64,000 nt of DNA from Oscillospiraceae bacterium (lineage in GTDB: Bacteria; Bacillota; Clostridia; Oscillospirales; Oscillospiraceae), in assembly GCA_017395085.1 (NCBI GenBank), contig JAFPWF010000017.1, positions 1-64,000 on the forward strand, read 5' to 3'. The translations under genes were made by a program, and so were the position numbers. Positions 22,180 to 42,801 of the stretch are shown piece by piece. Position 1 is the stretch's first letter. Each line of letters starts with the position of its first letter. The notes under the pieces were generated by a model that made no database searches, was not told the DNA's origin, and saw only the letters and a list, made by a program, of their open reading frames with translations.

Positions 22180-23154
22180 ATGGCGAATATGAACCGTTCG
22201 AGAATCTTGTATATTCTGCAAATCCTCCAAGAGGGTTCCGATCAGGAGCATCCGGTCACGATAGTAGAGATTATCACACAGCTCCAGGAACGCTGGGGAA
22301 TTGAGGCATATCGCATCACTGTCCAGAATGATATCGAAGCGCTTGTGGAGGCCGGTTATCCGATTGGCGTTATCAGGTCTACACAGAATAAATACTTTAT
22401 CCAGGAACATCATTTCTCGTTGCCGGAATTGAAACTCTTGGTTGACGCTGTTGCCTCGGGCAAGTTTATAACTCAGAAGAAGAGCCAAGTGTTGACGGTA
22501 AAGTTAACATCGATGACAAGCGTCCATCAAGCTGGTGCTTTGAAGCGCAATATCAGTCTGACAGATCGCGTAAAAACGGAAAATGAGGCCGGCTATGAGA
22601 TTATGGATGCGCTGAACACGGCTATCAATGCCGGCGTCAAAGTTAGTTTTCATTATTATGAGTTTAGTGGTACAAAGCGGCGTAAATTAAAGAATGATGG
22701 GGATCCGTACATTCTCAGTCCGTATACGCTGACCTGGAATGGTGATTTCTATTATGTAGTGGGCTGGTCTGATAAACACGGCAAAGTGGCAGTTTTCCGT
22801 GTGGATCGTATAGATGATACTCCGGTACTTCTGGATGAGCCAGCAGTAAAAAAGCCTAAGGGATATAATATCGGTGCGTTTACAGTGAAGGCCTTTCGGA
22901 TGTTCGACAGCGACCATGTAATGGTATCGCTTCTTTGTGAGAACAGTGCGATGAATACTGTGATAGATCACTTTGGCACAAAGGTGAAACCCAAAGCCGT
23001 AGATGAGGATCACTTCCAGGTAAACGTCGAAGTGTCTGCAAGCCCGACATTTTTCTCTTGGATTTTTGAGTTTGGCGGCATGATAAAGATACTGGGACCC
23101 AACAAGGTTAGAGATCAATACCGGGACATGTTGTGGAGAGCGTTGAAAGACTAG
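22180..23154 (+). CDS. brxR: BrxR-like transcriptional regulator (wHTH + WYL + C-terminal extension)
   Basis: 324 aa with an N-terminal HTH (ILYILQILQEGSDQEHPVTIVEIITQL). Size and architecture match WYL-domain regulators. It sits immediately upstream of a BREX-like operon and has a paralog at 41878. Confidence 0.65.
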   Translation: MANMNRSRILYILQILQEGSDQEHPVTIVEIITQLQERWGIEAYRITVQNDIEALVEAGYPIGVIRSTQNKYFIQEHHFSLPELKLLVDAVASGKFITQKKSQVLTVKLTSMTSVHQAGALKRNISLTDRVKTENEAGYEIMDALNTAINAGVKVSFHYYEFSGTKRRKLKNDGDPYILSPYTLTWNGDFYYVVGWSDKHGKVAVFRVDRIDDTPVLLDEPAVKKPKGYNIGAFTVKAFRMFDSDHVMVSLLCENSAMNTVIDHFGTKVKPKAVDEDHFQVNVEVSASPTFFSWIFEFGGMIKILGPNKVRDQYRDMLWRALKD

Positions 23155-23242
23155 AAGTTTTGTTGCAATCCCACTGTTTTTATAGGTATATCTCATGATA
23201 AAACTTGTTAAACAGTTCTGTGTTTGATATAATATTCAATTA

Positions 23243-26200
23243 GTGTTTTTGAGACTGGATAATGTGAATAAATCCTGGAGAGGCGGGTGGAAGCAAGTGA
23301 AGACAAACAAAGAGCTTTTTGCCGATTGGCTGTCCGAAATAGTTTCATCTTCCCGTGTGCCCGCCTGTTTGAGCGCTATGGATCTGATCCAGGAAATAGG
23401 GCATAAGAAGCATGTTTTCCAGGGAAATATTTATGATATTAAAGATCCCGAGATATCAAGAAAGCTGTTTTATACGATTCTGGAAGATGGATATTTATCC
23501 TTAATGCATAGTGAGAGTAAAAGAACGGTTAAGGATGTTGCCACTCTTTTCCACAAGTATATAAGTGAGAAGAATCCGGCAAGTGAAAAAGAGAAGGCGG
23601 TAAAGGTTGACACTCCTGCCGAGCAAGTTGTACGGCGGGAGAGAACCTACGTTCATGAAGATGTCGAAGAGTTCTATTCCTGGCTCAGCAGGAATGATTC
23701 TCTTTCTGCTACTGAATGCAAATCATTAGTGTCGGCACTGAGAGTCGCGGAACTGTTTGCGCAGGAAAACATTTCCGAGGGACTGGCACTGTTTTCTGAT
23801 GATCCTGATGTTGTCAATAAGACAATAGATTTGCTGTCTCAGGATCCGAACTTTAAAAGGAAGAATGATGAGCGTAAGGGAAGATATTTCATAGCTCTTG
23901 GGATTCTTCGTGCGTTCAATAACAGTAAAGAGAGTAAGGGAAATATGCCTGCAGCATCGAAAGTAGCAGAGGGGCAAGAGCAAATGGAAGATCCACTGCT
24001 GGCTTTAGTGATTAGCAAGGGAATTGAGTATATAGATAATCGGGGTAAAGGCGGTCGCCTCTGGTTAATCGGAGATCTTTCTCTGCGTGATAAAATATTA
24101 GAAATACAGGAAAAGGGCTATCGTTCGTTTTATATAGAGAGAGGGTGCAAGACGACTGGTTTTCGCAGTGCATGGTATGTGGATGTAAAGCCTGGGAGCA
24201 TGTATAAGAAAACAAAGGCTAAAGCTTCCGGTGATGAAAGGAAGAAAAAGGAAGCATCCAAATTACAGAAGCCCGCAGTAGAAAAAACGGCGGAAAAGAA
24301 GCAAAAAAAAGATGTTCTGATTGAACTGCTGAAGAGCAAAGGACTCAAATTTATTGACGACCGAACGAACGGCGGTCCGGTTTGGCTCATAGGGGGATTA
24401 GAACTTCAGGATGTAATAAGAAATCTTCGTGATGAGGGCTATTCTTTCTACTACAGTGTTGCCGGTACCGCAGCTACTGAATATCAAAGCGGCTGGTTTC
24501 TCGTAGAAAAATCGAGTGGTTCAAAAACTGGTTCTAAGCCCGAGGTGGGGAAAAAAGAAGCAGCAAAAAAACAAGGTAAAAGTGCTGCGGCATCGGTTGC
24601 TGCCGGACAGGGTAAGGCGATAAAACCGCAAGTTGCTGAGCAGGCGAAACAGGCTGCTCCGGCTAAGGTGATGTCTCCGAACCTCTGTAAATTGCTTGCC
24701 GATGATGATATGGCCGAATTGCGGGAGGAACTGGCTCGGCAGGGCGTCATCACGATGGATCAGTTTAAGACCGTTTCTCTCTGGCCTTTCTTAAACCGAT
24801 ATACGAATTATAGTATCAGTAAGCGGCAGGATATTATAAAGCGCATCAACAAGCGGCTTTGTAATCCTGCGCCGGTTGATACCTCGACACAATACTGCAT
24901 TAAAACTACAAATGCCAGATATTATGGCAATACGCCAGCGGAAGCTTTCGTAAGTTTCTGCGAGTATCTTGCGCAAAAATACCCTTTGAAAATCCGCACC
25001 TTAATCGGCGCACAGTATAACGGTCAGGGTTCCGTTGTCCTTTACAGGGAAGACCAAAAAGGCAATTCGCCGAGATTGACAAATCCGGTAGCGTACGTAA
25101 ATTCTGATTTGACTGAGCAGGCTGCTTTCCATTATGGCAAGTGGCTCAGTGAAATGTGTGGGGATAAAGACTATCCGGTAGAAGTAAAAAAACCTCGGGT
25201 CATCCCGCAGTACAATGATGTGAATCGGGATGCCGTAAAACAGAGTTCGGCAGCCTCAAAGCAAAAGACCGAACAGCGTGCCGGTTCTGTGAGCAGTTCT
25301 GCTCAAAAAACAAAAGCGACGGGCTCAGCAGCTTCAGCTGTCGCTTCATCCGATCAGGGAACTCAAACGGTAAGCAAAGCCGATATTACCAAGGTGGATC
25401 GTGCTGTTTTAAAAGCTGATCTGTCCGGTATCACAGTTGAAAAACTGAGTGAGAAAACTCAGTTTTCAGTTGCTGCAACGAGAAGAATAGTCGCTGCGGA
25501 TCCGAAGATCGTTCAACTTGGCGACAAGCTGGTGCATGAAAATGCATTTGTCGATTGGGAAGATGGCGCGGACAAGCTGGAAGAGATACTGGAGAAGCTG
25601 CTGGACAGAAATGACGGTTATATATCAGCGGCGAAACTATATGAATATGCGCGCTCCGAGATGTATATGTTCCTGAACGATAACGACATGGACGATGAAG
25701 GGTCAGTTTATGAATTGGCCCGGCATCTTTTTGAAAAAGTCGGCTATCATGGGAAAAAGCTGGTCTTTCAATCTAAGACTCATATTTCCCGCAATGAAGC
25801 TGCAGTTACAAGCGTTGTAGATTTGATCCATAACTTTGCACAGCCGGATGGTGGCTTTTTCCGCGAATCTGAATTGATTGAGTACCTGCAGAGCGTGGGT
25901 GTAAAAACAGGTAATCTGCGCGGCGGTTTGATGAAGGTATACACAGAACCGAGTTTTTTGTTCTATGATGAAGGTGTATTTCTGGAAGCAAAGTGCATCA
26001 GGATGGACGATGCCTGGTTTTCAGAGGTGAAGTCGGCGTTAGATAATTTGTTTAATGATCTTGGCGATCACATTGTAATCCGTGATATCCAGCCCTGGTG
26101 GTTTTATCAGTTGCCTGGGCTTCCCGGGGGAAAACAATGGACTCCGGTTTTGCTCCAGAGTGTATTGTACTTCTTCGGCGACAAGGTCGGTGGGGCGCGG

Positions 26201-26479
26201 ACAATTAAAGGTTTAAGTGGCCAGAGCGGTGACACGATTCATGCGATGTTGGTCAGCAAGGATAGCGAAATACAGACTTTCCCGGATGCGGTAGTGGCAG
26301 TTATAGTTGATGAGGGAATTCAGCAGAGGGATTTTGAGACGGAAGAATTGCGTCAGATTCTGATCAAGCGTGGTATGGTAGCAGGGAACGAACTGCTATA
26401 TACGATGCCCAAGGCGTTGGCTGATGACGGCCGTTTTGCATGGGATGCCGCTGGTCAGCGTGTGGTTGTGAAGGTGTGA
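23243..26479 (+). CDS. large hypothetical protein (1078 aa) with a tandem internal ~65-aa repeat and Lys-rich linkers
   Basis: Repeats KGIEYIDNRGKGGRLWLIGDLSL..GYRSFYIERG and KGLKFIDDRTNGGPVWLIGGLEL..GYSFYYSVAG. No catalytic motif recognised. The start may be the GTG at 23297. Confidence 0.5.
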   Translation: MFLRLDNVNKSWRGGWKQVKTNKELFADWLSEIVSSSRVPACLSAMDLIQEIGHKKHVFQGNIYDIKDPEISRKLFYTILEDGYLSLMHSESKRTVKDVATLFHKYISEKNPASEKEKAVKVDTPAEQVVRRERTYVHEDVEEFYSWLSRNDSLSATECKSLVSALRVAELFAQENISEGLALFSDDPDVVNKTIDLLSQDPNFKRKNDERKGRYFIALGILRAFNNSKESKGNMPAASKVAEGQEQMEDPLLALVISKGIEYIDNRGKGGRLWLIGDLSLRDKILEIQEKGYRSFYIERGCKTTGFRSAWYVDVKPGSMYKKTKAKASGDERKKKEASKLQKPAVEKTAEKKQKKDVLIELLKSKGLKFIDDRTNGGPVWLIGGLELQDVIRNLRDEGYSFYYSVAGTAATEYQSGWFLVEKSSGSKTGSKPEVGKKEAAKKQGKSAAASVAAGQGKAIKPQVAEQAKQAAPAKVMSPNLCKLLADDDMAELREELARQGVITMDQFKTVSLWPFLNRYTNYSISKRQDIIKRINKRLCNPAPVDTSTQYCIKTTNARYYGNTPAEAFVSFCEYLAQKYPLKIRTLIGAQYNGQGSVVLYREDQKGNSPRLTNPVAYVNSDLTEQAAFHYGKWLSEMCGDKDYPVEVKKPRVIPQYNDVNRDAVKQSSAASKQKTEQRAGSVSSSAQKTKATGSAASAVASSDQGTQTVSKADITKVDRAVLKADLSGITVEKLSEKTQFSVAATRRIVAADPKIVQLGDKLVHENAFVDWEDGADKLEEILEKLLDRNDGYISAAKLYEYARSEMYMFLNDNDMDDEGSVYELARHLFEKVGYHGKKLVFQSKTHISRNEAAVTSVVDLIHNFAQPDGGFFRESELIEYLQSVGVKTGNLRGGLMKVYTEPSFLFYDEGVFLEAKCIRMDDAWFSEVKSALDNLFNDLGDHIVIRDIQPWWFYQLPGLPGGKQWTPVLLQSVLYFFGDKVGGARTIKGLSGQSGDTIHAMLVSKDSEIQTFPDAVVAVIVDEGIQQRDFETEELRQILIKRGMVAGNELLYTMPKALADDGRFAWDAAGQRVVVKV

Positions 26480-26482: not shown

Positions 26483-27151
26483 ATGGCTAATGCTAGTTTT
26501 ACAAGAGATGAAGCTATTCTTGCATTAGATGTGCTATATCGTTCTAGTGGGCAACTCCCGTCTGCAAATTCAGAAGAGATCAAAGAGCTTTGCGGAGTAT
26601 TACAAGAACTTCCTATTCATCCGAAAGAGAATCGGAGAGTTGATTTTAGGAATGAGAGTGGTGTGAGAAATCAATTAGCTCTTTTCAAAAAAAGTTTTAA
26701 AAAAGGAGAAAAGGATCCTAACGTTGGAGCTGTCTTTTATTCAATAGCGATCGAATTCGAGAACAATTTGGAAGAATTACATCGAATTGCTAATGGTATT
26801 CGTAAAAACGTGACCTGTTTTAACAACCTGTTTGGTTCCGACTCTGAAGATGAGGGTTTTCCGGAAGGTGTTCTACTTGGTCATGCATATCGTGTGATTG
26901 AAAGAAGAGATGGGAAAAAGTGTAAGCTTGAACAAAGGTGTTCAATTTGCCAGATTGAACCAGATGTAATGTACCAGAAGGGAGATAGAATTCTTGAAGC
27001 TCATCTGATAGTAGATCCCTGTGATATAGTAGTCTCAAAAAAGTATTCAGCGCGTTGCTTTATTACAGTATGCCCAACATGCCACGCTGCATTACATAAG
27101 TATAGACCTTGGTTAAAGAAAAATGATTGTTCAATAATACTCCGCAGATAA
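26483..27151 (+). CDS. HNH-type nuclease domain protein
   Basis: C-terminal CSICQ...EAHLIVDPCD...CPTCHAALHKY matches the Cys-pair plus His HNH arrangement. Coupled to the upstream gene with a 3-nt gap. Confidence 0.45.
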   Translation: MANASFTRDEAILALDVLYRSSGQLPSANSEEIKELCGVLQELPIHPKENRRVDFRNESGVRNQLALFKKSFKKGEKDPNVGAVFYSIAIEFENNLEELHRIANGIRKNVTCFNNLFGSDSEDEGFPEGVLLGHAYRVIERRDGKKCKLEQRCSICQIEPDVMYQKGDRILEAHLIVDPCDIVVSKKYSARCFITVCPTCHAALHKYRPWLKKNDCSIILRR

Positions 27152-27165: not shown

Positions 27166-29487
27166 GTGTACGGATATGAGTGGACTGAAGAGTACGGAAT
27201 ATTCCGTTTAACAATAAATGCCAAAGTTCAGAAAGAGATAAGACCTGTCTTCCATGAGGAACTAGATTTCTTTGGCATGGATCAATTTTGGAATTATCCA
27301 AAAGACACAGCTGCTCCTTTGTTATGGGCAGAAGGTGTTCGTAGATATATTTATAATGGAGAATGTGTAGCGGAGGCACAGGGAGGCGGAATATATAATA
27401 AGCCTAAGATAGTCCGTTATACAGAGGAAAGGCTGCAGTTAAAGCCAGTTGATGTCAATAGACTTTATGAGATCAACGAGCCGTTTATGGTTAGCCTTGA
27501 ACAGAAAGCAATTCATTTTATTCAGGAGCAATATGAAAAGTATAGACTAAAGCAATATGCTTTTATATGTGCTTTCTCAGGTGGTAAAGATTCCATATTA
27601 CTATTAGATCTGATTTCAAAAGCGTTAGCGCCAAGCGACTTCTATGTGGTTTTCAGCAATACAGGAATGGAGCTTAGCGATACATTAGAAGCAATTCGAA
27701 GAGCGCGAATCCATTGGTCAGAGTTGCGCTTTGAAGAGGCAAAATGCCATATGGAACCGACCGAAACATGGAAAGAAATAGGTCCGCCTGCAAGCCATTT
27801 GCGTTGGTGTTGTTCTGTTCATAAATCCGTACCAACTGTGCTGCTGATTCAAAATCTGGTGGGCAGAAACAGTAAAGTAGTTGTTTTTGACGGGGTACGT
27901 GGTGAAGAGAGTATTCGGCGTTCAAGATATGAAGAAGTCGGGGAAGGCGTTAAGAATTCAATCCAAATCAATTGCCATGCAATTTTAAAGTGGTCTTCAG
28001 CTGAAGTATTTATTTATCTGTTAAAGAATCAATTACTTTTTAATGATGCTTATAGACGTGGTATTTATAGGGTTGGTTGCAAAATCTGCCCAATGTCTTC
28101 TAAATGGCAAGATGCTCTAATCGCTGCTAATTATCCAGATGAAGTTGCAGATTCAATTCAACAGTTGGAAGAGATTACGGTTTATGCTAAAGGTCGTCTT
28201 GATAAAAAATACATAGAAGATGGTGGTTGGCAGTCCAGGGTAGGAGGAAAAATACTAAAACAAGGCGAAAACAGGGTACAAGAGGAGATTGATGGAGAAA
28301 AGCTTATCTTCAACTTAGTTCATTCAAGACAGAACTGGTTGGATGTTCTTCCTGTTTTTGGGAATGTTGTCGAGAAAAAAGAAAATGAGTATATGCTTCA
28401 TACAAAACACGGCGTATTTGAAATGGAGTATAGTGATATTGAGGGAACACAGACAATAATAATATCACCGTTTTCAAAGCTAGATCGATATGCCATTGGG
28501 GCATTACGTTCGCTTACAAATAAAACCGCATATTGTATCGGCTGTAATTCTTGTATTCCGCAATGCCCAGTAGGTGCATTTCAAATAATCGACGGAAGAA
28601 TAAAAATAAGAGAGTCCGCATGTATCCATTGTTATAATTGTTGTTATGCAATAGATCGTGGGTGCATGGTTGCAAAGAGTCTACATGTAAAGGGTGATAA
28701 TGTGGCTAATCCAGATAAATACCGCAATTTCGGATTTAGACAGGCATTTTACAGTCATTTTTGTGATAATGGCATCCAATGTTTCGAAATGGAAGTGTTG
28801 GGTAAAGATCAGTATAAAGCACTCAAACAATGGCTTGCTGAAGCAGGTGTATTGAAGAGAACACAAAAAGGGAATAAAGAGATTATCAATGCTGAATTGA
28901 CAGAATTAGGCGATAAACTCATTAGTTTTGGTCCGTATAATCCGTTCCCGTGGTCAATTATGTGGGCTAATCTTGCTTATAATTCTATTGTTTCTCGTAG
29001 TTTTTGCCTTAACGTAGATGTTGGAGAGACCTTTGATAGCGGTTTTCTTGTAAATTGTCTGGATAAGGATGTCGATGAAAAGTATAGAAAACAAGCGGTT
29101 AATTCCTTGTTGTCCACATTTAGAGATTCCCCAATTGGTGGAGCGATAAATCAGGGAATTAGTATTGATAAGAACTTGTATCTTCGCGCTGGTTGGGAGT
29201 ATCCGCATGCGGTGGCTTTGCTTTATGCGTCGTATCTCTATGCGGAGCATACAGGGCGCAGGAGCTTTACATTTACTGAACTGGTGAATGCGAAGAAGAA
29301 CTTCGATGCGCCCGGTATCTCGCCGGCAGATATTTATGCGATTGATGTGAAAAAGTTCCGGGAGATTGTGCAAGGCCTGGCGCTACAGTTTCCGCAGTAT
29401 ATCAGAGTTTCATTTGTGGCAAATCTGGATAATATCATTCTTGAAAAATATAGCTCATTAGAGATACTGGATCTGGCGGAAGAGTAA
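27166..29487 (+). CDS. brxP: BrxP-like PAPS-reductase/PP-loop ATP-pyrophosphatase (DndC-like) fused to a 2x[4Fe-4S] ferredoxin-like domain
   Basis: PP-loop motif SGGKDS (FICAFSGGKDSILLLD). CIGCNSCIPQCP and CIHCYNCCYAIDRGC cluster motifs. 773 aa. GTG start with an AAAGGAG RBS. Confidence 0.7.
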   Translation: MYGYEWTEEYGIFRLTINAKVQKEIRPVFHEELDFFGMDQFWNYPKDTAAPLLWAEGVRRYIYNGECVAEAQGGGIYNKPKIVRYTEERLQLKPVDVNRLYEINEPFMVSLEQKAIHFIQEQYEKYRLKQYAFICAFSGGKDSILLLDLISKALAPSDFYVVFSNTGMELSDTLEAIRRARIHWSELRFEEAKCHMEPTETWKEIGPPASHLRWCCSVHKSVPTVLLIQNLVGRNSKVVVFDGVRGEESIRRSRYEEVGEGVKNSIQINCHAILKWSSAEVFIYLLKNQLLFNDAYRRGIYRVGCKICPMSSKWQDALIAANYPDEVADSIQQLEEITVYAKGRLDKKYIEDGGWQSRVGGKILKQGENRVQEEIDGEKLIFNLVHSRQNWLDVLPVFGNVVEKKENEYMLHTKHGVFEMEYSDIEGTQTIIISPFSKLDRYAIGALRSLTNKTAYCIGCNSCIPQCPVGAFQIIDGRIKIRESACIHCYNCCYAIDRGCMVAKSLHVKGDNVANPDKYRNFGFRQAFYSHFCDNGIQCFEMEVLGKDQYKALKQWLAEAGVLKRTQKGNKEIINAELTELGDKLISFGPYNPFPWSIMWANLAYNSIVSRSFCLNVDVGETFDSGFLVNCLDKDVDEKYRKQAVNSLLSTFRDSPIGGAINQGISIDKNLYLRAGWEYPHAVALLYASYLYAEHTGRRSFTFTELVNAKKNFDAPGISPADIYAIDVKKFREIVQGLALQFPQYIRVSFVANLDNIILEKYSSLEILDLAEE

Positions 29488-29506: not shown

Positions 29507-32500
29507 ATGCCTACTGAAAAATACAACAGTTATCTGGAAATCAATCCGGCATTTGAGTCTGTCGTTGATATTGATGCAGATAAGCGTAATGTCAATTTGT
29601 GGCGGGAGTATATCGTTGGCGATGATATGGTTACGCTGGTGGATTTCCTTTGCCAGTCATTAGGTAATGAAGCGCCGGATCTGCGCCGCTCGTTCTGGAT
29701 CCATGGTTCATATGGTACAGGTAAAAGCTATGCCGCCGTGTTCGTGAAGCATCTGATAGAAGAAAAGCCTGAAGTGATTGATGCTTTTCTTGCCGGTTCC
29801 AGCCGCTTGTCACAGTATAAAAACAGGTTTGCAAAATGCCGTCGTAACGGGGATTATCTTGTCGTTTGGAAAACAGGCTGCACTGGGATCCGTTCCGGGG
29901 ATATGATGTTGCTGGAAGCCGAAAAGGCAATTCAGGATGCTCTTCTCGAGAAGTTCGGTGAGGATGCGAATCTGGGCAGCAGTTCTTTGATGGATGCCGT
30001 TAAAGCAAAGCTTTCTGACCGTACGATCAATTGGGACGTCCTTCTTGAGACAACGGTGTTGGGAGAGGATTATTCCAGCGTGGAAGAACTCCGGCATCTG
30101 GTTGAAGTAGGGGATTTGTCTGCGTTGAAGGCAACTGCATCCGTCATCAGACAGAAAGGTATGGGACTGGTCAACAATCTTGAGACCTTCAAAGCCTGGG
30201 TCAGCGATGTCATTGATGCCAACAATCTTTCAAAGAGCGGTATCTTCTTTATCTGGGATGAATTCACGGAGTATGTAGCGCATAGCGATGATCATACAGT
30301 CATGCAGCAGTTGTCTGAGTTCTGCAAAGAAAAGCCGTTATTTATGTTCTTTGTTGTCCATCGCTCTCAGGAAATGCTGGATAGCATGGGGAATGATCGT
30401 TATCAGATGATTACGCATCGCTTCCATCAGGTTGAATTCCATGTCAGTTCGGATGCGGCATTTGATCTGATTGCCGGTTCTATTACCACGAGAAACGGAA
30501 TGGAAGAGGCATGGAAGGAAGATAGAAAACTGGTCATTAAGACGATCAAGCCCTTCCTGCCGGATATGTCCGGACTGGATGACAAAATCAGTGAACAAAT
30601 AGATACGCTTTGCCCGATGCACCCAATGACAATTCGTTTGTTGTCGCGTGTGGCGGAGAGTTTTGCCGCGGCGCAGAGAACAATGTTCCGTTTCATGAAG
30701 GACCGTTCGAGTAATGAGCATGGCTTCCTGGGCTATATCAACAAATATGGGCCCGACGATCAAGCGTGCTGGCTGACGCCGGATTGGCTCTGGGATTATT
30801 TCTTTACCAGAGAAAGCGATTTCAACGACAAGGATACCAAAGCGGCAGAATTCATCCATCATTATGAAGAGAACCGGCATTTGGTTCAAAATGATGAGAA
30901 TGCTCTCAGAGTTTTTAAGGTATCCATGCTTCTTTTGGCGGTAATGTCATCGACAAAGGGTGTTTATGGCGGCACGAAAACACAGGGCGGCATTTCCTCA
31001 ACCGTTGACTGCCTTGTTAACTGTCTTGCAGGCGTCATGTCTAAAGGTCAGGTGAAAGATCTTCTGGATACGTTGAGCGAGAGCAAGCTCATTCTGCAGG
31101 ATGAGGCCGCAAATGGAGTGGTGCGGCTGCAGCTTCCGTTCCGCGGCGGCAGCGATGATGAATACAAAGTGCGCTATGATGCCAATGATAAGAAGTATAC
31201 ACGGTATCAGATGTTTTCTAAGGACGGCGTTTTTGCCCAGGAGATTGAGAAAAAGTCCTGGGATGAAAATGATGCGGCGTATAAGCGCATGAAGATCTGT
31301 GCCTGCTGTGCAGAGACTAATTCCATCAAGACGAGGCTGGACGAAATTCAAAAGGACCTGGCCAAGTTCCAGTATAAACTTGGGCTTCTCATCGTTACCG
31401 TTCGGGATGAAGCACAGTACATGTCAATTCAGAGCGATCTGGCGCAGCGTTCGCGTGAAATGAATGAACCCCGTCTCATGATTGCTCTTGTCAAGCAGCC
31501 GTTTACGGAGGAGGCTCGGAAGAACTGGCTTAAGAGCCTGACAAAGCAGGAAATTGCTTATGCAAGAGGGCAGACAGCCTCTGGCGGTCAGTATAAACAG
31601 GAAGCGGCATCTGGTATTGCCAGGTGGGTTGGTAGTGCAGTTAGCGGCAGTAAGATTATTGCATGGCATGGCGAACAGGTGTTCAACAACCTGTATGGCA
31701 TGGCACATCTTCGCAAGACGGTCCATACGGCGGTTCTTGAAACGCTTTTCCCGTATGCGCCAGAGAGCGTAGTAGTTACGAATACCGCGTATAAGCCCTG
31801 CAACGATTCGGCACCCGCGGCAGGTATTACCCGTCAGACGAATAATGCCCAGTTGAAGAGCGTGCTGAACAGCCTGAAGACGGCGGGGCTCCTTGATCTT
31901 GTTTCAATAGATAAGATGGCTGAAGCTTCCGGGAGTAAAGCGGCAGATTCTGTCAGCCAGCTTGCGCGCATGATTCGCGATTCAATGCAGTCCGGTCAGA
32001 GGGTCGTTTTGGGCGACCTCTGGGAAAACCTGCAGAAGCCGCCGTTTGGTTATTACAACACCATTGCCTGCGGTGTGCTCCTCGGGTATGTGTTCTCATG
32101 TTACAAAGACAGCGCTTACAGTTGGACGGACAATGCCCAGAGTACGCATGTTTTGGGCGAGAATACACTGAAAACAATGGTCCTGAATATGTGCAAAGGG
32201 ACCATGACCACGGATTATCTGTCTGCCGGTTCCGTCACGTTCCAGAAGTTCCGCGAATATGTGAAAAGAATCCTTCATTTAACGGATGCACAGGTCGCAA
32301 ATGAAACGGAGTGCTGGCATAATATGCGTGAAGCGGTGACTAAAGCAGGCGCTCCGCTTTGGACACTGAAGTATTTGCCGGACATGGGTTACGGCGGGGC
32401 TAACTATAAAGATGCTGCAATGAAGATTATCGACAGCATGCAGCAGTTTATTGCCCAGGAAGGTGATCGCGAAGCTGCCATGAACAGCGTTTTGCAGGAG

Positions 32501-33712: not shown

Positions 33713-33744
33713 TTCTTATTCCATATTACGAGGGGCGTTTGAGC

Positions 33745-36305: not shown

Positions 36306-37766
36306 ATGCTGGAAGATAAAGTCAGGGAAGTATTTGCTGATATGATTGTTTTGAAAGACCCGCAACGCAGCGAGTATTTTTCAAATCTCAGTATTCCCTC
36401 ATATATGCGCGATTGGCTGGTCATGAAGTTTTCGGATGAAGACGGTTCGATTGACTACGACAGCGTTCGTCGTTATATCAAGCGGTACATTCCGAGTCGT
36501 GAGGACTTCGAGCAGTACAAGTTCCAGATGGTAAATGGTGAAATTGTTCAGTTTCTTGCCCGTGTTCGTGTTTCTGTCGATGTTAAGCGTGGTAAGACAA
36601 TGTTTGAACTGCCGGATTTCGGCGGTTCAAGAGGCGGTGCTGCCGGTGTCGTTGCTTATGATGTGGCTGAAGAGTGGCAGGAAACGCTGCTCCGCGAGAG
36701 CGAAAACTGGGGTATTGTCACATTATCCTGGGTTATGGAGGGGACACCATCCAATCCAAAGGGCGTTATCAGCATGGTAGATTACAGGCCGTTCTGCCCG
36801 TATTCAGTTGATCTGGAAGTTTATCGCGAAGCCCGGCGTGAATTTGACATTCATGAGTGGATTGATACGGTAATCCGGGCTGTGGATTATAATCCGGACG
36901 GTTACTGCGACAAGGATGGCAATGTGAGCGAGGAGACAAAGCTCTTCTTTCTGAGAAGGCTTCTGCCGTTTGTTGAGAAACGGGTTAACTTGATTGAGCT
37001 TGCTCCAAAAGGCACAGGCAAAAGCTACGTTTTTGAAAAAATCAGCAAACGCGGCTGGCTGATCAGCGGTGGTACTGTATCAAGGGCGTCTCTCATTTAT
37101 GATAATGCCAAGAAAACCGGCGGGTTGCTGACACGATTTGATTATGTCGGCTTTGATGAAGTGCAGTCCATCACATTTGAGCAGCCAGGTCAGATCCAAC
37201 AGGCGTTGAAACACTATATGGAATTTGGCGAGATTAAAGGCTTCGATGCCATGCTAACGGCGGATGCGGGCGTTATTGTTCTTGGCAACATTAACGCAGA
37301 TCGCTTTGATATCAATAAAAACATGGTTGAGCATATCAGTGATGTGTTTGGTGAATCTGCAACCTTGGACCGTTTCCACGGGTTTATCCCTGGATGGGAG
37401 ATCCCGAGAATGACTACGGGGATGATCGCCAAAGGCTGGGCGATTAATACGGAATATTTCGCAGAAGTGATGCATGCGCTTCGGGATGATCTGAGTTACG
37501 CGGCTATTGTGGATGAGCTGATTGATTATCCCTCAAACGCAGATAAACGCCATATGACCGCAATTAAACGTCTGTGCACTGCTTTTATGAAGCTTTTGTT
37601 CCCGCATGTTCAATCGGTAGAGGATATTGATAAGCAGGACTTTATCAAGTATTGTCTGAATCCCGCTATAGAGATGCGGTCGGTTATCTACAGGCAGCTC
37701 TGCATTATCGATCCGAAAGAATATAATGTGAAAAGCAAGCAGATACCTGAAGTTGTTTGTGTGTGA
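36306..37766 (+). CDS. brxL: BrxL-like AAA+ ATPase (N-domain + ATPase; appears to lack a Lon-protease-like C-terminal domain)
   Basis: N-terminal MLEDKVREVFADMIVLKD..YMRDWLVMKF resembles the BrxL N-terminus. Walker A APKGTGKS. Walker B YVGFDEVQS. Only 486 aa. Confidence 0.5.
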   Translation: MLEDKVREVFADMIVLKDPQRSEYFSNLSIPSYMRDWLVMKFSDEDGSIDYDSVRRYIKRYIPSREDFEQYKFQMVNGEIVQFLARVRVSVDVKRGKTMFELPDFGGSRGGAAGVVAYDVAEEWQETLLRESENWGIVTLSWVMEGTPSNPKGVISMVDYRPFCPYSVDLEVYREARREFDIHEWIDTVIRAVDYNPDGYCDKDGNVSEETKLFFLRRLLPFVEKRVNLIELAPKGTGKSYVFEKISKRGWLISGGTVSRASLIYDNAKKTGGLLTRFDYVGFDEVQSITFEQPGQIQQALKHYMEFGEIKGFDAMLTADAGVIVLGNINADRFDINKNMVEHISDVFGESATLDRFHGFIPGWEIPRMTTGMIAKGWAINTEYFAEVMHALRDDLSYAAIVDELIDYPSNADKRHMTAIKRLCTAFMKLLFPHVQSVEDIDKQDFIKYCLNPAIEMRSVIYRQLCIIDPKEYNVKSKQIPEVVCV

Positions 37767-37786: not shown

Positions 37787-38902
37787 TTGATTTATGCTGA
37801 CAACGCGGCCACAACAAGAATGGATCTTGCCGCTTATCATGCTATGCAGTCCTGGCTTCAGGTAGAATACGGGAATGCATCGCAGCCGTATTCTTATGCC
37901 CGGAAACCGAAACAGGCGCTTGCAAATGCACGGGAGATCATAGCGGCTTGTATCAACGCTCAACCGGATGAGATATATTTCACTTCCGGTGGAACGGAAA
38001 GCGATAACTGGGTGATTAAAAGTTCGGCTTTCTCTGATCCGGATCATCGTGAGACAATAACGACAGCTTTCGAGCATCATGCTGTTTTGAATTCGTGCGC
38101 GGTGATTGAGCGGCTGGGGTATCCGGTTTCTTATCTTATGCCAGATGAAAGTGGCAAGGTGTTGCCGGAGGCTCTCAGGGCTAAAATCACAGACAGGACC
38201 AGACTTGTTTCCGTCATGTTCGCGAATAATGAGATCGGGAGCATTCAACCGATTCGCGAGTTGTGTTCCGTGGCGCATGAGCATGGCGCGTTGTTCCATA
38301 CCGATGCGGTGCAGGCTGTAGGGCATGTGAAGATTGATGTCAAAGAACTGGGAGTTGATTTTCTCTCTTCTTCCGCTCATAAATTCAATGGCCCGAAGGG
38401 AATAGGTTTTCTCTATATTCGCAACGGCGCTGATTTACTGCCCTACATGGACGGCGGTGCGCAGGAAAAGAAGCATCGTGCAGGGACAGAAAACATTGCT
38501 GCAATATCGGGTATGGCGGAAGCATTAAAGGGAAATTGTGAGTACATGGAGCAGAATGAGGAACACATACGCGGTCTGGAAACCATGATCCTTAATGCCC
38601 TCTCAGCTGCCGGCGTTCGGTTTCAACGCAACGGCGGGGATTATACTCTGCCGGGGTTGATGAGTTTGTCATTCCCCGGGTTTTCAGGTGAAGCGATTCT
38701 TCACAGGATGGATTTGATGGGGATTTGCATATCAACCGGGTCGGCTTGCGACAGTGTAAATACGGAGATTTCTCATGTACTGAGGGCCATTAATCTGGAA
38801 GACTCCCTGGCAACGGGGACAGTTCGAATCTCGCTGGGCAAGTTCAATACAGTTGAAGATGCTGCTAGGATTTCTGAGTCGCTGATCAGAATCGTAAAGT
38901 AA
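37787..38902 (+). CDS. cysteine desulfurase (class V aminotransferase, NifS/IscS/DndA-like)
   Basis: IYADNAATT..., FTSGGTESDN, PLP-lysine region SSAHKFNGPKGIGFLY, and active-site Cys region GSAC. 371 aa. Confidence 0.8.
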   Translation: MIYADNAATTRMDLAAYHAMQSWLQVEYGNASQPYSYARKPKQALANAREIIAACINAQPDEIYFTSGGTESDNWVIKSSAFSDPDHRETITTAFEHHAVLNSCAVIERLGYPVSYLMPDESGKVLPEALRAKITDRTRLVSVMFANNEIGSIQPIRELCSVAHEHGALFHTDAVQAVGHVKIDVKELGVDFLSSSAHKFNGPKGIGFLYIRNGADLLPYMDGGAQEKKHRAGTENIAAISGMAEALKGNCEYMEQNEEHIRGLETMILNALSAAGVRFQRNGGDYTLPGLMSLSFPGFSGEAILHRMDLMGICISTGSACDSVNTEISHVLRAINLEDSLATGTVRISLGKFNTVEDAARISESLIRIVK

Positions 38903-38924: not shown

Positions 38925-40007
38925 ATGTCCATCATTTTTGAGGAAAGTTCTGAACCTGTAGTTTCCACTGCTTCTAAAGATAATTCCGGTAGAAGAAGTG
39001 CTTTTGCGCTTGATGCTATTCAAGGACAGTCTAAGGCAGTTGACTTATTGAAATCATACTGTCGTGAAGCAAAAGAAAAGAATATTCCTCTGGAGCATAT
39101 ATTGCTATCCGGTTCTAGCGGTTTAGGAAAAACAGTGCTTGCTGAAGCAATAGCAGGTGAGATGGATGCCGTTTTAAGAGAGTTTTCAGGCAGTTCCATC
39201 TCCTCCGATGCTGCTCTTGTTAAGGCATTGACCACTATCAATGAAGGCGATGTGCTGATAGTTAAAGATATCCACAAGTTGAATATCGTGAAAATGAAGT
39301 ATTTCAGCCAGCCTCTGAAGCGTTTCGAAATTGATTTGGATATTATGGATAGTACTATTCATCTTGAACTGCCACATTTCACGATGATTGCGACGACGAA
39401 TCAGCCTGATCTGCTCGCTGATGAAGTGAGAAATGCTTTTGATATCCAGCTTGAATTAGAGTCGAATGTGGTCGAAAACATTCACCTGAGGAAAGGCAAC
39501 AGGGTTTGTTTTAACTCGTTGCCTTTTGTCTCTCTATATATTGCAAATGTCATCGGTTATTATGATGCTCAAGGAAATGCTTTTTTTGTATCTGATCGGA
39601 ACATGGATGCAGATTTCAAAGACGATATAGTTTTGATCAAGAAATCTTCTGCTCTGGATAGTGTTTTTAAGAATGTTTCAGAGTTTACTATTTCGCCCTG
39701 CCTTTGCGTGGGAAGGAAGCGAGGCGTTTATTATGTACAACCTTCGGAGACGGTTGAGTTATTATTAGAAAGAGATGTTGAGAGAAAAGCGAAAAAAGTC
39801 AATGCCCCTTTTCTGCCGTCGCATCCCTTAACTGTGGAATGCAGAGTTGAAAAACAGGACCCATGGCTGTTGGAAGCCAGAATAATCAATGTATCTGCAG
39901 ATACTTCAATTCTTGATGACGAAGGGAACATTGATCCAACGGCGCTGTTTCATGAGTTGATGTATCTTCGAATGGGTGATTATCAAGAGAATGAAGCATT
40001 AGAGTAA
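38925..40007 (+). CDS. RuvB-like AAA+ ATPase paralog with a degenerate Walker B
   Basis: Collinear similarity to the RuvB N-domain: [23 protein letters not shown] ~ [33 protein letters not shown] aligns to RuvB VLFIDEIHRL, so D-E is replaced by K-D. The C-terminal 150 aa are unrelated. Confidence 0.6.
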   Translation: [360 protein letters not shown]

Positions 40008-41401
40008 TGATGAGGTTTAATGAGAAGTTAAAAGAGAATATATCCGAAATAGTTGTAACAGTCCGCAAAATAGAGAAGATCCTGACTGAGAAACAGGTAT
40101 TGCAGGAGTCTGTAATTAATCAGATCGCACACACATGCACGAGACTGGCGCTGCTGGCAATGGCAGCCTCAGATGAACTTGAGGTTGCAGGTGCTGTTGA
40201 AGACCGTCTGGTTCAAAGAGAGGTTGCGACTGCTCTATGGCAGATGGCACTCCATTTTATTGATATCCAGCAGGGCTGTAAGCTTGATGAGTTGCGTTAT
40301 CATTTCAAGCTGATAGGGAAACACAGTAACAGTGTTTTACAGCTGCTCGGTCTGCCTGAGCCGTTGTTTGTGGATAGTGGTGTTGTAGAGGGGAAGCCCT
40401 CTAATGATTCTGTGATTACCCGTGCGCAACCAATGGCATCTCCGCAAGATGATGGTAATGGTGTGTTTTCGGCCGGTTCTTCAATTGCTGTTCCCTTGAA
40501 TAATGTAAATGAAGAAGAGCGGCTGAGACGCGAAGTAAAGTCTTTGCGAGAGATCCTTTCTTCTTTGCTTCTGAAACGCGACCATCTTCTGCTGGTAGAA
40601 AGCAAGGAATTGGAAGCGTGGTATCTGAGGGAACTCGGCAATCTTGAGATTGAGGTCTTTTATGAAGAAAGCAATGCCAGATATTTGCAGCGGAAATATG
40701 AGCTTCTGGTGGCGGCGGTTAATCGCAGCGAGAAGATATCCAGGGAAGAGGTAGAGAACAAACTCAAGGAACAGGCAGAAACCTTCCGTAAAGCTTATGA
40801 GGAATATATGCGTCACGCGCAGGAGACCAACGATACGGTTCGGCAGCGTCGCGAAAACGTGAAAAATGCTGCCAATAAAAACGGACAGGAAGAAAAAAGG
40901 AATGAGGATGCTGTTGAGGCTGATGATGTAAGCAACGTCAAAGATCAAAGATCTGAGGAAGAGCCGCCAGAGGGAGAGAAGCGCCTGAAGCAACTCTACC
41001 GGAAACTCGTTAAGGCAATGCATCCGGACCTGCATCCCGATCAGGATGATAAAACGAAAGAACTGTTTAAGAGAGTGATTCATGCCTACGAGACGGGCGA
41101 TCTTCAGACGCTTGAAGAAATAGACAGCATAATCAACGGATTTGTTCCGGAAGAAAGCGGAAATCCATATGGTGCGCTTCTAGTAGAAAAGCAACGACTC
41201 CTGCAAATGATTCAGAGCATCCGTGCTCAGATTTTTATGATTCTTGGTCGTTTCCCCTTTACAAAACGAGAGCTGTTAAATGACCCCGCAAGATTGAAGT
41301 TAGAGCGTGAAAAACTGGAGGATCGTTTGATAAAGGCAAAAGAAAAGGCAAGAGCCTACAATGAGCGTATTATCGAGATTGAAAGGCAGCAAAATGGATG
41401 A
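40007..41401 (+). CDS. coiled-coil protein with a C-terminal J-domain (DnaJ-like)
   Basis: LYRKLVKAMHPDLHPDQ...ELFKRVIHAYE shows the helix II/III spacing with the HPD tripeptide. Long N-terminal coiled coil. The start overlaps the upstream stop (TAATG). Confidence 0.55.
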   Translation: MMRFNEKLKENISEIVVTVRKIEKILTEKQVLQESVINQIAHTCTRLALLAMAASDELEVAGAVEDRLVQREVATALWQMALHFIDIQQGCKLDELRYHFKLIGKHSNSVLQLLGLPEPLFVDSGVVEGKPSNDSVITRAQPMASPQDDGNGVFSAGSSIAVPLNNVNEEERLRREVKSLREILSSLLLKRDHLLLVESKELEAWYLRELGNLEIEVFYEESNARYLQRKYELLVAAVNRSEKISREEVENKLKEQAETFRKAYEEYMRHAQETNDTVRQRRENVKNAANKNGQEEKRNEDAVEADDVSNVKDQRSEEEPPEGEKRLKQLYRKLVKAMHPDLHPDQDDKTKELFKRVIHAYETGDLQTLEEIDSIINGFVPEESGNPYGALLVEKQRLLQMIQSIRAQIFMILGRFPFTKRELLNDPARLKLEREKLEDRLIKAKEKARAYNERIIEIERQQNG

Positions 41402-41843
41402 TTTAATTCTGAAACCTGCAGATGCCGAACTGGTTTCAATGCTCGACAGCTGGAAAGCTTTGAGCATGCCAATGCCTTATGAACGCGATATTTATCTTTT
41501 AGCTGTTCCGGTTGCAGGTACAAGTTATAAAGAGAATATCGGCGAGCTGGCAGAGCATCTGTCAGAAGGAGATCTGGTAACGCTGATCCGTGAGCCGGAG
41601 AATCCATACGATGAATTTGCCATCAGAATGGATGTGGATCTGGATGGCGTTCCGGGCATTGGTCCGGGTGAAGGGGATAAAAACAATCTGACTAGGAAGA
41701 TGGGTTATATTCCGCGGGCGACAAATAAAGTGTTTGCCCGCCTGATGGATGCTGGAAAACTGCTGTTTGGCGTGATTAGAAGTGTAGATATGATAACGGA
41801 TGATTATTACCGTATCATGGTAAAAATCTACATGCGTGATTAA
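41394..41843 (+). CDS. HIRAN-domain protein
   Basis: VAGTSY...GDLVTLIREPENPYDEFAIRMDV...GYIPRATNKVFARLMD matches the HIRAN consensus. ATGGATGA overlap with the upstream gene. Confidence 0.6.
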   Translation: MDDLILKPADAELVSMLDSWKALSMPMPYERDIYLLAVPVAGTSYKENIGELAEHLSEGDLVTLIREPENPYDEFAIRMDVDLDGVPGIGPGEGDKNNLTRKMGYIPRATNKVFARLMDAGKLLFGVIRSVDMITDDYYRIMVKIYMRD

Positions 41844-41877
41844 AGAACCGTTATCGTAAGTGCCGGGGGGTGCTTTT

Positions 41878-42801
41878 GTGGCGAAGGACAACAGACAGAA
41901 GATTAAGCTTTTGTATCTCATGGAGATGCTGCGGCAGGATACGGACGAGCAGCACCCGCTGACTACCAGTGAGATCTGCAGGCGGCTGGGGGTGAAGGGC
42001 ATCACCTGCGAGCGGCGCACCGTCGGCATGGATATGAAGGTGCTGAATGATTTCGGATACGAGGTCATGTCCTGCACGGTCGGGCATGAAAAGGCCTACT
42101 ATGTGGACGACCGCAGTTTTTCCGTACCGGAGATCAAGATTCTCATGGACGCGGTGCAGGCGGCAAAGTTCATCACGCCGGGAAAGAGTGATGCGCTGGT
42201 TTCAAAACTCGCCGCACTGGGCGGCAGCCATCAGGCGGAGATCCTGAAGAGCAACATCGTCTGTTTCAACACGCGCAAGCACACCAACGAGATGATTTTC
42301 TATAATGTTCAGGCGTTGGAGGATGCGATCCGGGAGCGGAAAAAGGCTTCGTTTCTGTACTTCGACCTGAATGAGAAGCGGGAGCGGGTATACCGCAGGG
42401 ACGGCGCGAGGTACGTGGTGGATCCCATGGCGCTCGTGTACGACGAGGACAATTATTATCTCCTGTGCTACAATCTGAAGCACGAAAACGTGACCACCTA
42501 CAGGGTAGATCGGATGGAACGGGTTTGCGTGGAAGAGGAGGATGTCTGCCCGCAGGCAATTGTGGAAAGGGACATCCACGGCTACACTTCGCAGGTCTTC
42601 AAGATGTTCAACGGCGAAGCGAAGGAGTTTACCATCGTGTTTGACGAGTCCCTGCTCGGAGCGGTTTATGACCGGTTTGGGGAAGAGGTCGAAGTCCGGC
42701 GGGTCGGGGAGAAGCTCTGCAGCATTACGGTCACCGTGCAGGACAGCCCGGTGTTCCGTGGCTGGCTTGCGCAGTTCGGCGATCTGGTTAACATCGCATA
42801 A
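41878..42801 (+). CDS. second WYL-domain transcriptional regulator (paralog of the gene at 22180; high-GC copy)
   Basis: N-terminus KIKLLYLMEMLRQDTDEQHPLTTSEICRRL parallels RILYILQILQEGSDQEHPVTIVEIITQL. About 300 aa. Confidence 0.6.
   Translation: MAKDNRQKIKLLYLMEMLRQDTDEQHPLTTSEICRRLGVKGITCERRTVGMDMKVLNDFGYEVMSCTVGHEKAYYVDDRSFSVPEIKILMDAVQAAKFITPGKSDALVSKLAALGGSHQAEILKSNIVCFNTRKHTNEMIFYNVQALEDAIRERKKASFLYFDLNEKRERVYRRDGARYVVDPMALVYDEDNYYLLCYNLKHENVTTYRVDRMERVCVEEEDVCPQAIVERDIHGYTSQVFKMFNGEAKEFTIVFDESLLGAVYDRFGEEVEVRRVGEKLCSITVTVQDSPVFRGWLAQFGDLVNIA

What the first reader, a model, noticed from the sequence alone, without database searches (positions are those of the whole stretch)
22180..42801. 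12-gene co-oriented operon: BREX type-4-like core (BrxP-BrxC-PglZ-BrxL) bracketed by two WYL/BrxR-like regulators and expanded with six extra genes
All genes from 22180 to 42801 are on the + strand with 0-26 nt gaps or overlapping stop/start codons (TAATG, ATGA, ATGGATGA). The core order is a PAPS-reductase/PP-loop protein (SGGKDS), a 1401-aa P-loop ATPase, a PglZ phosphatase-fold protein, then a BrxL-like ATPase. That is the gene order defined for BREX type 4, a rare and experimentally little-characterised BREX class. Around the core sit an unknown 1078-aa repeat protein, an HNH nuclease, a cysteine desulfurase, a RuvB-like ATPase, a J-domain protein and a HIRAN protein. No methyltransferase (PglX) is present. 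To my knowledge this composite has not been described.
Basis: partly seen in the sequence, partly recalled or inferred. Interest (0 to 1): 0.9.

Follow-up and report, generated by a model that had tools for sequence, protein, structure and literature searches.

The report
Prophage-borne BREX type 4 plus J-domain/HIRAN module
This is a genuine BREX type 4 anti-phage system (the kind now known to put sulfur on the DNA backbone) carried as cargo in a prophage; three of its "extra" genes form a separate, widespread and apparently undescribed J-domain/HIRAN module that sits next to it.

Summary
There are 13, not 12, co-oriented genes at 22180-42801; a 66-aa zinc-ribbon ORF at 36093-36293 was missed. 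Profile searches firmly assign BrxP, BrxC, a type-4 PglZ and a short BrxL. No methyltransferase is present.

BREX type 4 is no longer uncharacterised: 2026 papers show that BrxP and BrxC make phosphorothioate DNA, and that a cysteine desulfurase, a small zinc-finger protein and HNH nucleases often accompany the core.

Across 56 related genomic loci the conserved unit is [g2-like protein]-(HNH)-BrxP-BrxC-PglZ-ZnF-BrxL-CysDes. The conserved C-terminal core of g2 is an array of winged-helix domains and is the first gene of the operon in gut Clostridia. I found no description of it in the two papers read.

The RuvB-like AAA+, J-domain and HIRAN genes do not co-vary with BREX-4; they occur in only one other BREX-4 locus (L043). 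The J-HIRAN pair is an autonomous module. HIRAN directly follows the J gene in 70 of 73 metagenome loci, and none of the 80 loci has BREX genes.

The second WYL gene has prophage-backbone GC content. The whole island is low-GC cargo between a prophage's lysis and repressor modules.

The parts
22180..23154 (+). g1: BrxR-like wHTH-WYL-WCX transcriptional regulator (324 aa)
   Evidence: Pfam WYL 6.4e-13 and WCX 9.6e-6. PADLOC WYL 9.6e-26. It is 41-45% identical to the WYL genes that directly follow CysDes in seven other BREX-4 loci. A TGnTATAAT-like element lies at about 22131-22141.
23205..23233 (+). Promoter-like site in the g1-g2 gap (TTGTTA-17-TATAAT with TG extension)
   Evidence: Best-scoring sigma-70-like match in 21000-40900. 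This is a consensus match only.
23243..26479 (+). g2: 1078-aa protein. The C-terminal core (aa ~700-1078) is an array of winged-helix domains. There is a confident middle domain (aa ~478-650). The N-terminal ~475 aa are lineage-specific and include two ~65-aa repeats.
26483..27151 (+). g3: McrA-like HNH nuclease (222 aa) with an uncharacterised N-terminal domain; a facultative insert between g2 and BrxP
   Evidence: Nine full-length homologues share an invariant CxxC...H...CPxCH..LH. A profile aligns weakly to the HNH of E. coli McrA, 6ghc (E 0.18). It is present in full in nine of the related loci, plus one fragment, and absent from the rest.
27166..29487 (+). g4: BrxP (PAPS-reductase/PP-loop, ferredoxin-like Cys cluster, DUF4007-like C-terminus)
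   Evidence: PADLOC BrxP 7.2e-207, full length. Pfam PAPS_reduct 2.4e-22 and Fer4. SGGKDS at aa 138.
29507..33712 (+). g5: BrxC/SspC-like ATPase (1401 aa)
   Evidence: PADLOC BrxC 1.7e-62 and SspC 1.5e-28. Walker A at aa 67. Precomputed Pfam BrxC-PglY_N.
33739..36096 (+). g6: PglZ, type-4 subfamily
   Evidence: NCBIfam NF033445 BREX_PglZ_4, 266.8 bits against a cutoff of 140. PADLOC PglZ 9.3e-28.
   Evidence: Called as a gene in L001 and L002. Homologues (43-83% identity) are present in 49 of 56 related loci. It matches the 'small zinc-finger protein' that PMC12839542 links to type-4 CysDes.
36306..37766 (+). g7: short BrxL (BrxL_N plus MCM-like ATPase, no Lon protease domain)
   Evidence: Pfam BrxL_ATPase 4.6e-105 and BrxL_N 2e-23. 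TIGR02688, 409 bits against a cutoff of 329. PADLOC BrxL 1.2e-186.
37787..38902 (+). g8: NifS/IscS/DndA-type cysteine desulfurase; 3' end of the conserved BREX-4 operon
   Evidence: Aminotran_5 4.6e-77. PADLOC DndA 2.1e-123 and SspA 3.1e-123. Present in 45 of 56 related loci. What follows it differs from locus to locus in 35 loci.
38925..40007 (+). g9: RuvB-derived AAA+ protein with Walker B changed from DE to KD and an unknown C-terminal half; first gene of the neighbouring module
   Evidence: RuvB_N 2.8e-26 over aa 29-177 only. This is below the RuvB family cutoffs (100 bits against 282). The only close relatives are the same element. Walker B reads VLIVKDIHKL. One homologue lies between J and HIRAN in L084.
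40007..41401 (+). g10: coiled-coil J-domain protein (464 aa)
   Evidence: Pfam DnaJ 1.3e-6. HPD is invariant in 19 full-length homologues. A profile matches J-domain helices II-III in the PDB. The family has 1248 representatives at E<=1e-3.
41361..41843 (+). g11: stand-alone HIRAN protein (160 aa), obligate partner of g10
   Evidence: Pfam HIRAN 2.8e-14. A HIRAN gene lies directly downstream of the J gene in 70 of 73 metagenome loci.
41860..42801 (+). g12: second WYL-WCX regulator, probably outside the low-GC island
   Evidence: Pfam WYL 2.7e-13. GC is 0.561 against 0.38-0.49 for g1-g11. It is 32% identical to g1. Its best relative (52%) lies next to a ResIII-helicase-HNH gene in L031.

Best explanation
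The region is a composite of two units inside the low-GC cargo island of a prophage.

Unit 1 (22180-38902) is a BREX type 4 phosphorothioate (PT) modification and exclusion system. A BrxR-like WYL repressor (g1) sits upstream of an eight-gene operon.
- The cysteine desulfurase (g8) mobilises sulfur from cysteine.
- BrxP (PP-loop, Fe-S region, DUF4007 DNA-binding tail) and the BrxC ATPase install PT at specific motifs on host DNA.
- PglZ and short BrxL, with an optional McrA-like HNH nuclease (g3), block DNA that lacks the mark.
- g2, a multi-winged-helix protein, is a lineage-conserved DNA-binding or scaffold subunit.
- The 66-aa zinc ribbon is a small adaptor or regulator.

Unit 2 (38925-41843) is an autonomous AAA+/J-domain/HIRAN module. 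Its conserved core is the J-HIRAN pair. Most likely HIRAN recognises DNA 3' ends and the J domain recruits host DnaK.

g12 is a separate WYL regulator at the island/prophage boundary.

What is shown here: family assignments, gene order, co-occurrence patterns and the wHTH fold of g2. What is inferred: PT chemistry (by homology to B. salyersiae BrxP/BrxC), the restriction roles, and every functional statement about unit 2.
For: Core assignments all pass curated or very strong thresholds.

Published genetics show that BrxP and BrxC, plus a cysteine desulfurase, suffice for PT (PMC12914056). CysDes and a zinc-finger protein are frequent type-4 companions (PMC12839542).

In 56 homologous genomic loci, BrxP-BrxC-PglZ-ZnF-BrxL-CysDes is collinear, with g2-like immediately upstream and the HNH gene variably present. 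g2-like is the first operon gene in six metagenome places. The g2 core folds as a wHTH array with pLDDT 91.

The region after CysDes is variable in 35 loci. g9-g11 are absent from 55 of 56 BREX-4 loci.

The J family is large. HIRAN directly follows J in 70 of 73 loci, across 36 clusters at 70% identity. No BREX gene occurs in any of the 80 J loci.

g12 has outlying GC.

Prophage context: tail, endolysin, S24 repressor, PolA, D5 primase, integrase.
Against: There is no expression, modification or phage-challenge data for this element.

The 13 genes are tightly packed, with no convincing internal terminator, so g9-g11 may be co-transcribed with BREX-4.

L043 is the closest BREX-4 relative. It carries a divergent AAA+/J-like/HIRAN trio at exactly the same position after CysDes. 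That could mean real functional coupling rather than coincidence.

The search for g2 relatives was limited, so g2-family genes without BREX-4 may exist.

The HNH assignment rests on motifs and a weak match.
Confidence: 0.75

Rival explanations
1. One reading: all 12-13 genes form one integrated, expanded BREX-4 system in which the AAA+, J-domain and HIRAN proteins are functional subunits. For example, they might process nicked or 3'-ended DNA produced during PT-dependent restriction.
For: The genes are co-oriented, with -41 to +26 nt junctions from g2 to g12, and there is no strong internal terminator. An analogous AAA+/J-like/HIRAN trio sits directly after CysDes in L043, the nearest BREX-4 relative.
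Against: The trio is absent from 55 of 56 BREX-4 loci. None of 80 J-HIRAN loci carries a BREX gene. The position after CysDes is a variable slot. The trio proteins of the window and L043 are only 27-31% identical, or not alignable for the AAA+, while the BREX genes are 55-88% identical.
Confidence: 0.12
2. g9-g11 (and g12) are prophage genes for replication, recombination or lysogeny control, not defence. In this view the RuvB-like ATPase, a J-domain co-chaperone and a fork-binding HIRAN protein serve the phage's own DNA metabolism.
For: The island sits inside a prophage, next to its repressor and replication modules. g12 has backbone-like GC. Phages are known to encode J-domain co-chaperones (PMC7824862).
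Against: g9-g11 have island-like GC (0.40-0.46). tblastn finds no J-family member in 50,697 phage records or in IMG/VR. Neighbours of J-HIRAN in metagenomes include McrBC, UvrD-type helicase, SMC/AAA_15 ATPase and a giant helicase, which looks like defence-island company.
Confidence: 0.1
3. The locus is decayed or non-functional cargo: a defence island remnant carried passively by the prophage.
For: The island's GC is foreign to the backbone. g9 has a degenerate Walker B.
Against: All 13 ORFs are intact and full length relative to their profiles. Catalytic motifs are present. The identical element recurs on 8 metagenome contigs.
Confidence: 0.03

Closest known systems
BREX type 4 (brxP-brxC-pglZ-brxL), as in Bacteroides salyersiae DSM18765 (PMC12914056) and the 457-taxon survey in PMC12839542
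   Same: It has the same four core genes in the same order and no PglX methyltransferase. It has an associated DndA/SspA-like cysteine desulfurase and a small zinc-finger protein. An McrA-like HNH gene is embedded in the operon, and a WYL/BrxR regulator is present.
   Different: Here the operon starts with a large multi-winged-helix protein (g2 family) that neither paper's text describes. The zinc-ribbon gene lies between PglZ and BrxL. The system is prophage cargo. An AAA+/J/HIRAN module and a second WYL gene follow CysDes.
Ssp phosphorothioation system (SspABCD plus SspE)
   Same: BrxP resembles an SspD plus SspB fusion, BrxC resembles SspC, and g8 resembles SspA (PADLOC hits; homology stated in PMC12914056).
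   Different: The restriction side is PglZ plus BrxL (plus HNH), not SspE or SspFGH. NCBIfam and PADLOC place PglZ and BrxL in BREX.
BrxR/CapW family of wHTH-WYL-WCX defence regulators (PMC9122601, PMC9122589, PMC11662680)
   Same: g1 and g12 have WYL and WCX domains and sit at the edges of defence genes.
   Different: There are two divergent copies (32% identical). g12 is compositionally part of the phage backbone. Ligand and operator are unknown.
PADLOC candidate PDC-M03 (HIRAN-containing component B)
   Same: g11 and the L043 HIRAN protein hit PDC-M03B weakly (1.7e-9 and 5.7e-10).
   Different: The similarity is confined to the HIRAN domain. g10 and g9 hit no PDC-M03 model. The J-domain partner is not part of PDC-M03 as far as these models show.
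RuvB Holliday-junction motor
   Same: The N-terminal AAA+ domain of g9 is 37% identical to RuvB over aa 29-179.
   Different: g9 lacks the RuvB C-terminal domains, scores far below the RuvB family cutoffs, and has Walker B changed from DE to KD. No RuvA is present.

Membership tests
BREX type 4 | BrxP: PAPS-reductase/PP-loop protein replacing PglX | tested here: met
   PADLOC BrxP 7.2e-207 over aa 1-763. PAPS_reduct 80 bits against a cutoff of 22.5. SGGKDS present.
BREX type 4 | BrxC/PglY ATPase | tested here: met
   PADLOC BrxC 1.7e-62. Precomputed Pfam BrxC-PglY_N. Walker A present. No hit in this Pfam or NCBIfam scan.
BREX type 4 | PglZ of the type-4 subfamily | tested here: met
   NCBIfam BREX_PglZ_4, 266.8 bits against a cutoff of 140.
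BREX type 4 | BrxL | tested here: met
   TIGR02688, 409.2 bits against a cutoff of 329.3. BrxL_N and BrxL_ATPase present. No Lon protease domain (short form).
BREX type 4 | No PglX/BrxX methyltransferase in the cluster | tested here: met
   No methyltransferase domain in any of the 13 genes or in the island genes scanned.
BREX type 4 | Phosphorothioate modification of host DNA and phage exclusion | not testable with these tools
   Needs LC-MS/MS or PT-seq and plaque assays. Shown for B. salyersiae only (PMC12914056).
BrxR/CapW (wHTH-WYL-WCX) regulators | WYL plus WCX domains with an N-terminal DNA-binding domain | tested here: met
   WYL and WCX are above or near their cutoffs for g1; for g12, WYL is above and WCX at 20.9 is below 23.9. 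The PADLOC WYL model covers aa 7-309 of g1. The HTH was not detected separately.
J-domain (DnaJ/Hsp40) proteins | HPD tripeptide between helices II and III | tested here: met
   HPD at aa 339 of g10, invariant in 19 homologues. Pfam DnaJ 28.8 bits against a cutoff of 27.8. The profile matches J-domain structures over helices II-III. Helix I was not matched.
HIRAN domain proteins | HIRAN fold by profile | tested here: met
   PF08797, 53.2 bits against a cutoff of 24.7. 3'-end DNA binding was not tested.
RuvB | Full-length RuvB architecture reaching the family cutoff | tested here: not met
   NF000868 100 bits against 282, and TIGR00635 88 bits against 299. Only the N-terminal AAA+ domain matches. 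Walker B DE is changed to KD.
DndA/SspA cysteine desulfurase | Equivalog-level match | tested here: inconclusive
   PADLOC DndA and SspA about 1e-123. NCBIfam DndA 318 bits is below 480, and NifS 418 bits is below 531. It is a NifS/IscS-class enzyme; its role is inferred from context.
McrA-type HNH nuclease | beta-beta-alpha-Me motif with zinc-binding CxxC pairs and a catalytic His | tested here: inconclusive
   The motif is invariant in 10 homologues. The profile-to-6ghc match is only E 0.18. No Pfam hit.

The most novel reading that the evidence does not exclude
The AAA+/J-domain/HIRAN genes represent an undescribed, widespread immune or DNA-surveillance module. In it a HIRAN protein senses DNA 3' ends, such as phage genome ends, replication intermediates or nicks made at unmodified PT sites. 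Its obligate J-domain partner then recruits host DnaK/Hsp70 to that site. Its repeated placement right after the BREX-4 cysteine desulfurase (this element and L043) would reflect functional cooperation with PT-based restriction. In addition, the g2 multi-winged-helix protein would be a previously unrecognised core subunit of Clostridial BREX-4.
Probability: 0.25. Interest if true: 0.7.

Novelty: new variant of a known kind. Interest (0 to 1): 0.45.

Why it matters
BREX type 4 has just been linked to phosphorothioate DNA, but how it restricts phage is unknown.

This locus and its 56 relatives define a fuller conserved gene set for the gut-Clostridia clade. It includes a multi-winged-helix first gene and a zinc-ribbon gene, both of which can be tested directly.

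The system rides on a prophage. That bears on how PT epigenomes spread in gut and rumen microbiomes.

The J-HIRAN pair is a separate lead. It is a tightly conserved two-gene module with more than 1,000 sequence clusters. No description was found in four full-text literature searches or in PADLOC. It would connect Hsp70 recruitment to DNA-end sensing in bacteria.

Tried and rejected
- A homologue search with g9 returned only the same element and true RuvBs.
- A homologue search with full-length g2 was swamped by low-complexity words. It worked only with the C-terminal alignment.
- Viral-contig scans with g2, g10, the endolysin and the M78 protein found no useful relatives.
- Megablast of the right flank against phages and plasmids gave nothing useful.
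- The J family is absent from the phage and plasmid collections by tblastn.
- The AFDB fold library was unavailable.
- The N-terminal 475 aa of g2 stayed low-confidence and had no PDB sequence match.
- No direct repeats bound the island, and the window has no tRNA.
- I rejected calling g9 a RuvB, because the family cutoffs are not met.
- I rejected calling g11 a PDC-M03 member, because only the HIRAN domain matches.
- I rejected treating g12 as the BREX-4 BrxR, because of its GC content and relatives.

Full report
**Observation.** The window carries an unbroken run of + strand ORFs from 22180 to 42801. Junctions from g2 to g12 range from a 41-nt overlap to a 26-nt gap. First, an 88-nt g1-g2 spacer holds the best sigma-70-like site of the region, at 23205-23233. 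Second, the apparent 209-nt gap between PglZ and BrxL encodes a 66-aa CxxC...CxxC protein at 36093-36293. Metagenome annotators called this gene, and it is conserved in 49 of 56 related loci. The cluster therefore has 13 genes. GC content is 0.38-0.49 for g1-g11, against about 0.6 for the flanks.

**Core assignment.**
- BrxP: PADLOC 7.2e-207 over its full length, a Pfam PAPS_reduct domain, a ferredoxin-like cysteine cluster, and SGGKDS at aa 138.
- BrxC: PADLOC 1.7e-62, with secondary SspC hits.
- PglZ: passes the NCBIfam BREX-4-specific model, 267 bits against a cutoff of 140.
- BrxL: passes TIGR02688, 409 bits against 329, and is the short form without a Lon protease domain.
- No methyltransferase is present.

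The refutation condition 'profile searches fail' is not met. This is BREX type 4.

**What is already known.** PMC12914056 (Nat Commun 2026) showed that BREX-4 makes phosphorothioate (PT) DNA. BrxP and BrxC plus a host cysteine desulfurase suffice. The B. salyersiae operon includes an mcrA-like HNH gene and an unknown gene. brxR is a non-essential regulator. [quoted passage not shown] It also catalogued HNH auxiliary nucleases across BREX. That paper's text and the supplements held here do not mention HIRAN, DnaJ or RuvB. WYL/BrxR regulators of defence islands are well documented. So the cysteine desulfurase, the HNH gene, the zinc finger and a WYL regulator are expected companions, not novelties.

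**Comparative test.** A genome scan with BrxL returned 56 loci, mostly gut and rumen Clostridia. A tblastn matrix of all 13 proteins against these loci shows four things.
- BrxP-BrxC-PglZ-ZnF-BrxL-CysDes is collinear nearly everywhere.
- The C-terminus of g2 lies directly upstream of BrxP, or of the HNH gene, in about 25 loci. Its coverage is limited only by the 10-kb flank.
- The HNH gene is present in full in nine loci and as a fragment in one more, always between g2 and BrxP.
- Where a WYL gene is present it usually follows CysDes directly, and it resembles g1 (41-45% identity) more than g12 (31-34%).

g9, g10 and g11 are absent from all loci except L043. Profile searches confirm this. The region after CysDes differs from locus to locus in 35 loci. 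CysDes therefore marks the 3' end of the conserved operon.

**g3.** Ten homologues share an invariant FPEG...H..R..E.RD, C..C, H-L, CP.CH..LH pattern. The profile aligns with the HNH of E. coli McrA, though weakly (E 0.18). Its N-terminal motif recurs at the N-termini of some g2-family proteins.

**g9-g11.** g9 matches RuvB only over its AAA+ N-domain and scores far below the family cutoffs. It has KD in place of the Walker B DE. Apart from the same element on 8 metagenome contigs, it has no close relatives.

g10 belongs to a real family. There are 1248 representatives at E<=1e-3, and full-length homologues have an invariant HPD. A metagenome scan with that alignment gave 80 loci. A HIRAN gene lies directly downstream in 70 of the 73 loci with enough sequence, at a median offset of 8 nt, across 36 clusters at 70% identity. 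No BREX gene, g2 or g3 occurs in any of these loci.

Genes upstream of the J gene vary. They include McrBC, a UvrD-type helicase, an SMC/AAA_15 ATPase, TPR proteins, AraC, a second HIRAN protein, and an ADP-ribosylglycohydrolase fused to the J protein. One locus also carries a 1545-aa helicase. A g9-like AAA+ appears only in L084, between J and HIRAN.

L043 is the nearest BREX-4 relative. It carries a different AAA+ (AAA plus AAA_lid_6), a J-like protein (27% identical to g10, with HPA instead of HPD) and a HIRAN protein, directly after CysDes. The J-HIRAN pair is thus an autonomous module that has twice landed in the same slot beside BREX-4. That is suggestive, but 2 of about 36 BREX-4 loci and 0 of 80 J-HIRAN loci do not support obligate coupling. 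Neither literature search returned a paper holding 'HIRAN' together with 'J-domain', and the two that held 'HIRAN' with 'DnaJ' did so only through unrelated mentions. The module is also absent from the phage and plasmid collections.

**g12 and context.** g12 is a WYL-WCX protein, 32% identical to g1, with GC of 0.561. Its best relative lies beside a helicase-HNH gene in L031. I therefore place the right edge of the island between g11 and g12.

The window is prophage-like. Reading left to right it has:
- tape-measure and tail genes and a CHAP endolysin;
- the cargo island;
- an S24 repressor, an M78 peptidase and sigma factors;
- PolA, an exonuclease, a D5 primase, a helicase and an integrase.

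The island's upstream part carries further candidate defence genes: a TIR-TPR-DUF6273 protein, a DUF2971 protein and an SPFH/zinc-ribbon protein.

**Mechanism.**
- Shown: gene families, gene order, co-occurrence, and the g2 fold.
- Inferred by homology: g8 supplies persulfide sulfur. BrxP and BrxC install PT on host DNA. PglZ, BrxL and the optional HNH nuclease act on unmarked DNA. g1 represses the operon promoter until infection cues relieve it.
- Speculative: HIRAN senses 3' DNA ends, and the J domain brings DnaK to them.

**Verdict.** This is a bona fide BREX type 4 system of a known kind. Its features of interest are a lineage-specific extra subunit, a prophage carrier and an uncharacterised neighbouring J-HIRAN module. 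The 'undescribed 12-gene composite' reading is only partly supported.

Noticed in passing
window 5760-11154 and 42837-58849: The window is a prophage-like element. It has tape-measure and tail genes, a CHAP plus PG-binding endolysin, an S24 LexA-like repressor, an M78 peptidase, two sigma factors, PolA, an exonuclease, a D5 primase, a helicase and a tyrosine integrase. The roughly 31-kb low-GC island sits between the lysis and repressor modules.
   Followed up: partly
window 11718-14429: A 903-aa protein with TPR, TIR_2 and C-terminal DUF6273 domains and no PADLOC hit. It is a candidate TIR-based defence gene at the start of the island.
   Followed up: no
window 14764-21182: Further island cargo: a DUF2971 protein (weak PDC-S31 hits), an SPFH/Band7 protein with double zinc ribbons (611 aa), a YbjQ-like protein and a KTSC-domain protein. 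A strong terminator at 21224-21256 closes this block.
   Followed up: no
window 38925-40007 (g9); L084:7925-8764: Both RuvB-derived AAA+ proteins have a degenerate Walker B (KD and ED in place of DE). This suggests altered or lost ATP hydrolysis.
   Followed up: partly
L101:7670-10105, also L104 and L107: In some metagenome loci the J-domain protein is fused to an N-terminal ADP-ribosylglycohydrolase (812 aa). In L101 and L104 it lies near a ~1545-aa helicase related to PDB 9wae/9tu7.
   Followed up: no
L089:533-2122: A g1-like WYL gene (310 bits) directly follows a J-HIRAN pair. This mirrors g10-g11-g12 in the window, so WYL regulators may also control J-HIRAN modules.
   Followed up: no
window 26483-26800 (g3 N-terminus); P0128, P0143, P0147, P0149: The N-terminal motif of the HNH protein (FTRDE..L.LD... 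FRN..G) recurs at the N-termini of several g2-family proteins. This hints at a shared, mobile sensor or interaction domain.
   Followed up: no
phage records MT835511.1 and MT835963.1 (hits H2, H3): Unannotated human-faecal 'Bacteriophage sp.' contigs encode full-length BrxP-like proteins (30% identity). BREX-4-like genes on putative phage contigs may therefore not be unique to this element.
   Followed up: no
L061, L063 and L043: Related BREX-4 operons sit next to relaxase/MobC or relaxase/ParB genes. In gut Clostridia this system travels on mobilisable elements as well as on the prophage seen here.
   Followed up: partly
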